The notes under the pieces are model-generated. The model made no database searches and had not been told where the DNA came from. It worked only from the letters and a program-made list of their open reading frames with translations. Both the position numbers and the translations under genes were made by a program. Shown here piece after piece: positions 12,555-12,632 of a stretch of 64,000 nucleotides of DNA (positions within the stretch are counted from its first letter, which is position 1; the number at the start of each line of letters is the position of its first letter). The DNA is from Escherichia coli O127:H6 str. E2348/69 (lineage in GTDB: Bacteria; Pseudomonadota; Gammaproteobacteria; Enterobacterales; Enterobacteriaceae): assembly GCF_000026545.1 (NCBI RefSeq), contig NC_011601.1. One strand, given 5' to 3'.

Positions 12555-12632
12555 TTTTGTAGTACCAGCGTGATGACGTTCGCGTTTGCTGCGCGCCTAA
12601 TGTAGTACAAAGTTATACTATTGTACTACAAT
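12555..12632 (-). promoter_or_regulatory. dgo promoter/operator with DgoR-type inverted repeats
   Basis: TGTAGTACAA...TTGTACTACA inverted repeat at about 12601..12630 plus a third TTGTAGTACCA half-site at about 12556, within 150 bp upstream of dgoR. Confidence 0.5.

What the first reader, a model, noticed from the sequence alone, without database searches (positions are those of the whole stretch)
12555..12632. Three GTAGTAC-type repeats upstream of dgoR form a likely DgoR operator
TGTAGTACAA and TTGTACTACA form an inverted repeat separated by 10 bp, and a third TTGTAGTACCA copy lies about 45 bp away, all within 150 bp upstream of the GntR-family repressor gene dgoR. This is the expected arrangement for autoregulated dgo operon control. 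With dgoD disrupted the operon cannot complete catabolism, but the regulatory region is intact.
Basis: partly seen in the sequence, partly recalled or inferred. Interest (0 to 1): 0.3.

Follow-up and report, generated by a model that had tools for sequence, protein, structure and literature searches.

The report
Known DgoR operator of dgo operon
The three short repeats upstream of dgoR are the binding boxes of the galactonate repressor DgoR, two proven by experiment in E. coli K-12 and the third previously predicted, so this is ordinary, textbook-type operon control.

Summary
The window is E. coli O127:H6 E2348/69. They exceed chance: 4 matches with at most 1 mismatch in 64 kb against 0.62 expected, three of them within 75 bp.

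The "inverted repeat with a 10-bp gap" is really two self-palindromic 11-bp boxes (TTGTA-S-TACAA). These are the published operators IR1 and IR2 of K-12, identical in sequence here. The DgoR protein carries the same accession as in K-12-type genomes. By published Sort-Seq coordinates, IR1 and IR2 cover the -35 and -10 (TACATT) of the CRP-dependent, galactonate-inducible promoter.

The third box is already listed as a predicted E. coli DgoR site (Suvorova 2015, supplementary file). None of the later papers I could read mentions it. In 80 Enterobacterales dgoR upstream regions all three boxes are conservation islands: IR1-IR2 spacing is 21 bp in 80/80 and IR2-box 3 spacing is 43 bp in 71/80.

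The dgoD disruption is real (ISEc13 insertion).

Verdict: observation confirmed, interpretation supported, already known. The only open point is what the third box does.

The parts
12621..12631 (-). IR1: the perfect palindromic DgoR operator TTGTAGTACAA (-140..-130 from the dgoR ATG). It overlaps the right half of the CRP site and the -35 region of the inducible promoter P1.
   Evidence: Sequence. Identical to the published K-12 IR1. Perfect in 74 of 80 Enterobacterales upstream regions, mean column conservation 0.99. Lies in the Sort-Seq DgoR site at -140..-110.
12600..12610 (-). IR2: DgoR operator TTGTACTACAT, one mismatch to the palindrome (-119..-109). It contains most of the P1 -10 hexamer.
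   Evidence: Sequence. Identical to the K-12 IR2. Centre 21 bp from IR1 in 80/80 species; conservation 0.95 against 0.59 for the 10-bp spacer.
12557..12567 (-). Box 3: TGGTACTACAA, one mismatch (-76..-66). A predicted third DgoR site, about +26..+36 from the inferred P1 start and 2 bp upstream of the putative -35 (TTGCCG) of the proximal RNAP site.
   Evidence: Sequence. Listed as DgoR_ECO site CACGCTGGTACTACAAAGTTG in the Suvorova 2015 supplementary file. A conservation island of 0.91 between flanks of 0.56 and 0.71; at most 2 mismatches in 78/80 species; 43 bp from IR2 in 71/80. Binding was not shown in any paper I read.
12599..12604 (-). P1 -10 hexamer TACATT of the D-galactonate-inducible promoter.
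   Evidence: Belliveau 2018 names the wild-type -10 as TACATT, between -120 and -100. Coordinates.
12627..12642 (-). CRP site TGTGATCTAAATTGTA. The left half TGTGA is good and the right half is poor. It is in class II position, with its centre about 42 bp upstream of the inferred P1 start, and it contains GATC at 12636-12639.
   Evidence: Belliveau 2018: TGTGA at -160..-140, with the right half overlapping the -35. Coordinates. TTTTTGTGATC is conserved across species.
12524..12554 (-). Proximal RNAP site (P2): putative -35 TTGCCG (12549-12554) and -10 TAAAGT (12524-12529), with a 19-bp spacer.
   Evidence: Belliveau 2018 reports an RNAP site at -30..-70 from the ATG, active in glucose. GGTAAAGTAG is a conservation island. 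The hexamer assignment is my inference; the strict consensus scan found none.
11802..12491 (-). dgoR, a GntR/FadR-family repressor and the first gene of dgoRKADT.
   Evidence: ORF. RefSeq WP_000174305.1, the same accession as in a K-12-type genome. Pfam GntR 2.9e-14 plus FCD 2.1e-27. PDB 7C7E 3.7e-149.
7994..9543 (-). ISEc13 (IS4 family) inserted in dgoD, splitting it into 9544-10329 (5' part) and about 7623-7993 (3' part).
   Evidence: RefSeq annotation. Transposase NF033590 2.6e-154. Terminal inverted repeats and the 8-bp direct repeat TGCATGGG.

Best explanation
This is the operator-promoter region of the D-galactonate operon dgoRKADT of E. coli, here strain E2348/69. Two 11-bp palindromic boxes, IR1 (12621-12631) and IR2 (12600-12610), have centres 21 bp apart, which is two helical turns. 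Each is bound by a dimer of the GntR/FadR-family repressor DgoR. IR1 covers the -35 region and the right half of a class II CRP site. IR2 covers the -10 hexamer TACATT. Bound DgoR therefore excludes RNA polymerase from the inducible promoter. D-galactonate binds the C-terminal FCD domain of DgoR and releases it from DNA; CRP-cAMP then activates transcription. Because dgoR is the first gene of the operon, the circuit is autoregulated. These steps are shown experimentally in K-12 and transfer here because the boxes and the protein are identical. A third box with one mismatch (12557-12567) lies about 30 bp downstream of the inferred P1 start and just upstream of a weaker proximal RNAP site. I infer that it is a low-affinity auxiliary DgoR site, in helical phase with IR2 (43 bp) and IR1 (64 bp), that tightens repression by cooperativity or looping, by roadblock, or by damping the proximal promoter. 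That role is inferred, not shown. In E2348/69 an ISEc13 insertion in dgoD breaks the pathway downstream of an intact switch.
For: Strain identity: 100% match to E2348/69. Boxes present and non-random. IR1 and IR2 are identical to the published K-12 operators. Published experiments place the DgoR site at -140..-110 from the ATG: repressor-type expression shift, DgoR enrichment by DNA-affinity mass spectrometry, and loss of the shift in a dgoR deletion or with D-galactonate. They also place the -10 TACATT and a class II CRP TGTGA site there. These coordinates map exactly onto 12600-12642. [quoted passage not shown] DgoR here has the same protein accession as in K-12-type genomes and has GntR plus FCD domains. 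Comparative evidence: in 80 Enterobacterales upstream regions the three boxes are conservation islands (0.99, 0.95, 0.91) separated by variable DNA (0.56-0.59), with fixed spacing. Box 3 was predicted as a DgoR site by Suvorova 2015. Box 3 keeps the DgoR palindrome in two alternative one-mismatch forms, T[AG]GTACTACAA or TTGTACT[GT]CAA. That fits selection for DgoR recognition better than selection for some unrelated overlapping signal.
Against: No experiment was done on this strain. For box 3, the Sort-Seq paper reports a repressor-type signal only at -140..-110 and describes -30..-70 as an RNAP site active in glucose. [quoted passage not shown] Box 3 is never a perfect palindrome in 80 species, so its affinity may be low. 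Its conservation could owe something to the adjacent proximal promoter. I could not read Singh et al. 2019, the primary operator paper, so I do not know whether box 3 was tested there.
Confidence: 0.9

Rival explanations
1. Only IR1 and IR2 are functional DgoR operators. Box 3 does not bind DgoR in vivo and is conserved because it is part of, or an upstream element of, the proximal constitutive promoter that supplies basal dgoR transcription.
For: Sort-Seq saw an RNAP site at -30..-70 and no repressor-type signal near -70. Later papers mention two inverted repeats only. Box 3 abuts the putative -35 TTGCCG. It always carries at least one mismatch.
Against: The island matches the DgoR palindrome with at most 2 mismatches in 78/80 species. 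It switches which half-site carries the mismatch while staying a near-palindrome, which a -35 or UP element would not require. A match with at most 1 mismatch has a per-position chance of about 3e-5 by my arithmetic. It was picked up independently by comparative regulon reconstruction. Its distance to IR2 is more constant than the surrounding sequence.
Confidence: 0.3
2. The 10-nt arms (12601-12610 and 12621-12630) act as one hyphenated inverted repeat that forms a DNA cruciform or an RNA hairpin, for example an attenuator or terminator, rather than protein-binding boxes.
For: The arms are 100% complementary with a 10-nt loop. The central bases G (IR1) and C (IR2) are almost invariant, so the 32-bp higher-order dyad is conserved.
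Against: No terminator-like site was found. The arms lie at and upstream of the -10 of the inducible promoter, so they are largely not transcribed from it. Each arm is itself a palindrome of the FadR-subfamily type TKGT-N3-ACMA. DgoR binding to this stretch is shown experimentally. The same box recurs a third time with no partner arm.
Confidence: 0.02
3. The boxes are recognised by a different GntR/FadR-family regulator, such as ExuR, UxuR, LldR or PdhR, and not by DgoR.
For: FadR-subfamily motifs share TKGT/ACMA cores. DgoR has weak similarity to NanR, LldR, GlcC and PdhR models.
Against: DNA-affinity chromatography on -145..-110 enriched DgoR most strongly, and the repression signal vanished in a dgoR deletion. 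The boxes co-occur with dgoR orthologues in every locus examined.
Confidence: 0.02

Closest known systems
E. coli K-12 dgoRKADT promoter/operator (DgoR IR1 and IR2; Singh et al. 2019, J Bacteriol 201:e00281-18; Belliveau et al. 2018, PNAS, PMC6003448)
   Same: The same locus in another strain. The three 11-bp boxes, the -10 TACATT, the CRP half-site TGTGATC and the whole -100..-1 region apart from one base are identical. The DgoR protein has the same accession.
   Different: There are 3 substitutions in the 10-bp IR1-IR2 spacer (TAGTATAACT against CAATATAAGT in K-12) and a few between IR2 and box 3. dgoD is broken by ISEc13 in E2348/69.
Predicted DgoR regulon sites in Enterobacterales (Suvorova, Korostelev and Gelfand 2015, PLoS One, PMC4494728, supplementary file held as file 2)
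   Same: Lists all three E. coli sites, including the third: CACGCTGGTACTACAAAGTTG.
   Different: A prediction only. Pectobacterium is listed with two sites, and Affinibrenneria (L082) also shows only two boxes in my scan, so the third box is not universal.
FadR-subfamily palindromic operators (FadR, PdhR, LldR, GlcC; consensus TKGT-N3-ACMA)
   Same: The same architecture: an A/T-rich palindrome with GT and AC separated by 3 nt, recognised by a wHTH dimer with one monomer per half-site.
   Different: The DgoR-specific sequence is TTGTA-S-TACAA. There are two tandem operators at 21 bp plus a distal one, rather than a single box.
LldR operators O1/O2 of lldPRD and lac O1/O2/O3 auxiliary operators (recalled from my own knowledge, not checked here)
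   Same: A main operator at the promoter plus a weaker auxiliary operator downstream of the transcription start, at an in-phase distance, proposed to cooperate by looping.
   Different: No evidence here that DgoR tetramerises or loops DNA. This is offered only as a working analogy for box 3.

Membership tests
DgoR operator of the dgo operon (IR1/IR2) | Sequence matches the experimentally defined K-12 boxes TTGTAGTACAA and TTGTACTACAT, 10 bp apart | tested here: met
   identical 11-mers, 10-bp spacer, centres 21 bp apart.
DgoR operator of the dgo operon (IR1/IR2) | Lies directly upstream of dgoR, the first gene of dgoRKADT, at -140..-110 from the ATG, overlapping the inducible promoter | tested here: met
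   Coordinates against the published map; gene order dgoR-K-A-D-T.
DgoR operator of the dgo operon (IR1/IR2) | Cognate repressor is DgoR (GntR wHTH plus FCD domain) | tested here: met
   WP_000174305.1, the same accession as in a K-12-type genome. Pfam GntR and FCD above gathering score. 7C7E 3.7e-149.
DgoR operator of the dgo operon (IR1/IR2) | Physical binding by DgoR and release by D-galactonate | not testable with these tools
   Shown for the identical K-12 sequence in the literature. Not measured for this strain.
Third DgoR site (box 3) | Matches the DgoR palindrome and is conserved at a fixed position in orthologous loci | tested here: met
   One mismatch here. At most 2 mismatches in 78/80 species. 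43 bp from IR2 in 71/80. Conservation 0.91 against flanks of 0.56 and 0.71. Predicted earlier.
Third DgoR site (box 3) | DgoR binding with a regulatory effect | not testable with these tools
   No supporting experiment in the papers I could read. Sort-Seq reported no repressor signal there.
FadR-subfamily GntR operator | Palindrome with TKGT ... ACMA boxes and 3 nt between GT and AC | tested here: met
   TTGTA-G-TACAA fits. DgoR is named among the 3-nt-spacing group.
Class II CRP-dependent promoter | CRP half-site TGTGA with the site centre about -41.5 from the start, overlapping the -35 | tested here: inconclusive
   TGTGA at 12638-12642. The centre is about 42 bp upstream of a start inferred from the -10 TACATT. 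The class II assignment is published for K-12. The transcription start was not mapped here.

The most novel reading that the evidence does not exclude
Box 3 is a genuine low-affinity auxiliary DgoR operator that selection keeps imperfect. It was never a perfect palindrome in 80 species, and the mismatch alternates between half-sites. It sits at a helically phased 43/64 bp from IR2/IR1. From inside the 5' leader it would cooperate with the promoter-proximal dimers by looping or roadblock, or would tune the basal proximal promoter that supplies DgoR. That would make dgo a three-operator switch rather than the two-operator one currently described.
Probability: 0.4. Interest if true: 0.3.

Novelty: already known. 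Interest (0 to 1): 0.1.

Why it matters
There is little to discover. The finding re-identifies a characterised operator, which confirms that the first-stage reader can recognise repressor boxes from sequence alone. Two modest points of value follow. First, the third box is deeply conserved with fixed spacing, yet it is absent from the current two-operator model in the papers I could read, so a cheap mutational test could refine a model system used for GntR/FadR allostery and for quantitative promoter modelling. Second, in EPEC E2348/69 the switch is intact while dgoD is broken by an IS. If D-galactonate can still enter the cell, which is doubtful because dgoT lies downstream of the IS, it would act as a gratuitous, non-metabolised inducer. 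That is relevant to sugar-acid use in gut colonisation.

Tried and rejected
- **Other TGTAGTAC matches.** There are 8 in the window against 0.71 expected. I asked whether the five outside the dgo region mark a wider DgoR regulon. The three I checked are coding. 19892 lies in the 471-aa ORF 19650-21065, and 23707/23788 are Tyr-Tyr codons in the 548-aa ORF 22400-24046; I take these ORFs to be dnaA and yidC from gene order. I did not inspect 30870 and 47669. Rejected as chance or codon usage.
- **Relaxed motif.** With up to 2 mismatches the motif is not enriched window-wide (6 found against 10.9 expected). Only the stringent matches and their clustering carry signal.
- **Promoter and terminator scan.** The strict sigma-70 and terminator scan of 12440-12800 found nothing. 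The dgo promoters are weak or CRP-dependent, so I placed them from published coordinates instead.
- **Literature by sequence string.** This returned only unrelated primer hits.
- **Singh et al. 2019.** The primary paper is not held, by PMC id or by DOI. The Belliveau 2018 supplement is not held either. The meaning of 'DgoR (right site)' in Reg-Seq could not be resolved.
- **NCBIfam.** It has no DgoR-specific model above cutoff. Identity therefore rests on the RefSeq accession, Pfam domains and PDB 7C7E.
- **Hairpin or cruciform reading.** Considered and rejected; see the rival explanations.

Full report
**Where we are**

The 1.8-kb stretch around the finding is 100% identical to E. coli O127:H6 EPEC E2348/69. 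RefSeq annotation of that genome (window = locus L001 + 5699) gives these features on the minus strand:
- dgoR, 11802-12491
- dgoK, 10927-11805
- dgoA, 10326-10943
- a 5' fragment of dgoD, 9544-10329
- an IS4-like ISEc13 transposase, 8005-9378
- a 3' dgoD fragment, about 7623-8000
- dgoT, 6211-7548

yidX diverges on the plus strand from 12770. The ORF list agrees with all of this.

**The observation**

Reading the sequence confirms all three copies at the stated coordinates. In dgoR orientation the region reads:

...TTTTTGTGATCTAAA-TTGTAGTACAA-TAGTATAACT-TTGTACTACAT-(32 nt)-TGGTACTACAA-(65 nt)-ATG

- The repeat finder reports the 10-nt, 100% complementary arms 12601-12610 / 12621-12630 with a 10-nt gap. 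It also reports the direct TGTAGTAC copy 43 bp away.
- The consensus TTGTASTACAA with at most 1 mismatch occurs 4 times in the window against 0.62 expected, and 0 of 100 shuffles reach 4. Three of the four lie in this 75-bp stretch.
- Three of the five other TGTAGTAC octamers were checked and sit in coding sequence, for example Tyr-Tyr codons in the ORF I take to be yidC. They are irrelevant.

**What the boxes are**

Each copy is itself a near-palindrome, TTGTA-S-TACAA. That is the FadR-subfamily operator type, TKGT-N3-ACMA, for which DgoR is named explicitly.

They are the published DgoR operators of E. coli K-12:
- IR1 is given as 5'-CTAAATTGTAGTACAACAATAT-3' and described as a perfect inverted repeat. 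IR2 has one mismatch.
- The alignment with a K-12-type genome shows that all three 11-mers are identical in E2348/69 and K-12. There are 3 substitutions in the IR1-IR2 spacer and a few further downstream.
- The DgoR protein has the same RefSeq accession (WP_000174305.1) in both. It carries the GntR wHTH and FCD domains and matches PDB 7C7E at 3.7e-149.

**How it works (shown in K-12, transferred here by sequence identity)**

Belliveau et al. 2018 mapped the following:
- A repressor-type Sort-Seq signal at -140..-110 from the dgoR ATG.
- Strongest enrichment of DgoR on that DNA by affinity chromatography and mass spectrometry.
- Loss of the signal in a dgoR deletion and in D-galactonate.
- A -10 hexamer TACATT, with RNAP sites overlapping the repressor site.
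- A class II CRP site with TGTGA at -160..-140.
- A further RNAP site at -30..-70 that is active in glucose.

In window coordinates:
- IR1 is at -140..-130.
- IR2 is at -119..-109.
- TACATT is at -113..-108, inside IR2.
- The CRP 16-mer TGTGATCTAAATTGTA is at -151..-136, overlapping IR1.

The Chaba laboratory papers state that DgoR dimers bind the two closely spaced inverted repeats overlapping the dgo promoter. They give a KD of about 0.5 uM on a 55-nt probe, report that D-galactonate releases DgoR, and describe DgoR as an autorepressor.

The mechanism is therefore steric exclusion of RNA polymerase (and of CRP) by two DgoR dimers on the same DNA face, with centres 21 bp apart. The substrate relieves the repression, and CRP-cAMP activation is superimposed on it.

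**The third box**

It lies at -76..-66. With the P1 start inferred about 7 nt downstream of TACATT, that is roughly +26..+36. It is also 2 bp upstream of TTGCCG, which I take to be the -35 of the proximal RNAP site (TAAAGT as -10, with a 19-bp spacer). The hexamer assignment is my inference, because the strict scan found nothing.

The box is not new. The supplementary file of Suvorova et al. 2015 lists three DgoR_ECO sites, the third being CACGCTGGTACTACAAAGTTG.

To see whether it is more than a motif match, I fetched 80 dgoR loci from other Enterobacterales species. I then scanned up to 300 bp upstream of each start, which was usable for 79 of them, giving 80 sequences with E2348/69. The column-conservation profile used the 79 with at least 200 bp.

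| Feature | Result |
|---|---|
| IR1 | perfect in 74/80 |
| IR2 | at most 1 mismatch in 74/80 |
| Box 3 | at most 2 mismatches in 78/80 |
| IR1-IR2 centre distance | 21 bp in 80/80 |
| IR2-box 3 centre distance | 43 bp in 71/80, 42 or 44 bp in the rest |
| Mean conservation, IR1 / IR2 / box 3 | 0.99 / 0.95 / 0.91 |
| Mean conservation, IR1-IR2 spacer | 0.59 |
| Mean conservation, IR2-box 3 interval | 0.56 |

Box 3 is never a perfect palindrome. Escherichia, Salmonella, Citrobacter and Klebsiella carry T[AG]GTACTACAA, with the mismatch at position 2. Most other genera carry TTGTACT[GT]CAA, with the mismatch at position 8.

Keeping a near-palindrome in two alternative forms argues for selection on DgoR recognition. 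It is less easily explained by an unrelated overlapping signal.

Against a strong role:
- Sort-Seq reported no repressor-type signal there.
- Later papers speak only of two inverted repeats.
- I could not read Singh et al. 2019.

I rate box 3 as a probable weak auxiliary operator (about 0.6-0.7 that it binds DgoR), with its regulatory effect unknown.

**Within E. coli**

The intergenic region is present in 5,424 of 5,426 complete genomes. E2348/69 carries a minority haplotype; most genomes are 90-95% identical to it.

In a sample of seven E. coli sequences spanning the diversity, the boxes are intact apart from single changes:
- HET6 has TAGTACTACAA at box 3.
- EC1515 has TTGTAGTACAG at IR1 and TGCGA in the CRP half-site.

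The two O157:H7 genomes listed match only the yidX-proximal half of the query. In the one I inspected the operon and all three boxes are missing.

**The dgoD remark**

It is correct. ISEc13 occupies 7994-9543, with IS50-like ends and an 8-bp flanking duplication, TGCATGGG.

By inference, the switch still controls dgoR, dgoK, dgoA and a truncated dgoD. The effector D-galactonate cannot be dehydrated. dgoT lies downstream of the IS and may suffer polarity.

**Comparison and verdict**

This is the same system as the K-12 dgoRKADT operator-promoter. Every membership feature that could be tested is met. Physical binding cannot be tested with these tools, but it is published for identical DNA and an identical protein.

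Rival readings are poorly supported; see the rival explanations:
- a hairpin or cruciform
- recognition by another GntR-family regulator
- box 3 as a promoter element only (the only one with real weight, at about 0.3)

Novelty: already known. Interest: low (0.1). The one open question is the function of the deeply conserved but never perfect third box.

Noticed in passing
window 7994-9543: ISEc13 (IS4 family) is inserted in dgoD. Its ends are IS50-like (CTGTCTCTTGATCAGATCT and CTGTCTCTTATACACAAATC), and it is flanked by the 8-bp direct repeat TGCATGGG (7986-7993 and 9544-9551).
   Followed up: partly
window ~12633-12642; L003:2960-3160: E. coli O157:H7 lacks dgoRKADT and all three DgoR boxes in the genome I inspected. 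Similarity to this window resumes only beside the CRP half-site next to IR1, leaving cbrA adjacent to yidX.
   Followed up: partly
window 12636-12639: A GATC lies inside the CRP half-site TGTGATC, 4 bp from IR1, with its adenine at -147 from the ATG. It has the same offset as the hemimethylated GATC reported for Salmonella dgoR, which is linked to bistable, Dam-dependent expression (PMC7708049). A second GATC sits at 12534-12537, next to the proximal -10.
   Followed up: partly
window 12600-12631 and loci L004-L083: The central base of IR1 is G in 80/80 species and that of IR2 is C in 79/80. The two boxes therefore form a conserved 32-bp higher-order dyad. The reason for the fixed central-base orientation is unexplained.
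   Followed up: partly
window 12612-12617: The IR1-IR2 spacer holds a -10-like hexamer, TATAAC here and TATAAG in K-12. It probably belongs to the overlapping RNAP sites described by Belliveau 2018. The spacer differs at 3 of 10 positions between E2348/69 and K-12.
   Followed up: no
window 12520-12533 and 12650-12656: There are further conservation islands across Enterobacterales: GGTAAAGTAG (probably the proximal -10) and ATTGT upstream of the CRP site. The latter has no assigned function.
   Followed up: no
window 19892, 23707, 23788, 30870, 47669: Five extra TGTAGTAC octamers make the window-wide count 8 against 0.71 expected. The three I checked lie in coding sequence (ORFs I take to be dnaA and yidC, the latter at Tyr-Tyr codons), so this is a codon effect and not a set of DgoR sites.
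   Followed up: partly
L088 (E. coli EC1515): A urinary isolate has IR1 changed to TTGTAGTACAG and the CRP half-site changed to TGCGA. IS66 and IS3 remnants replace the yidX side of the intergenic region. This may be a natural regulatory variant.
   Followed up: no
window 12770-13426: yidX, the divergent neighbour that shares the intergenic region, has no Pfam or NCBIfam match. Whether CRP or DgoR affects it is unknown.
   Followed up: no
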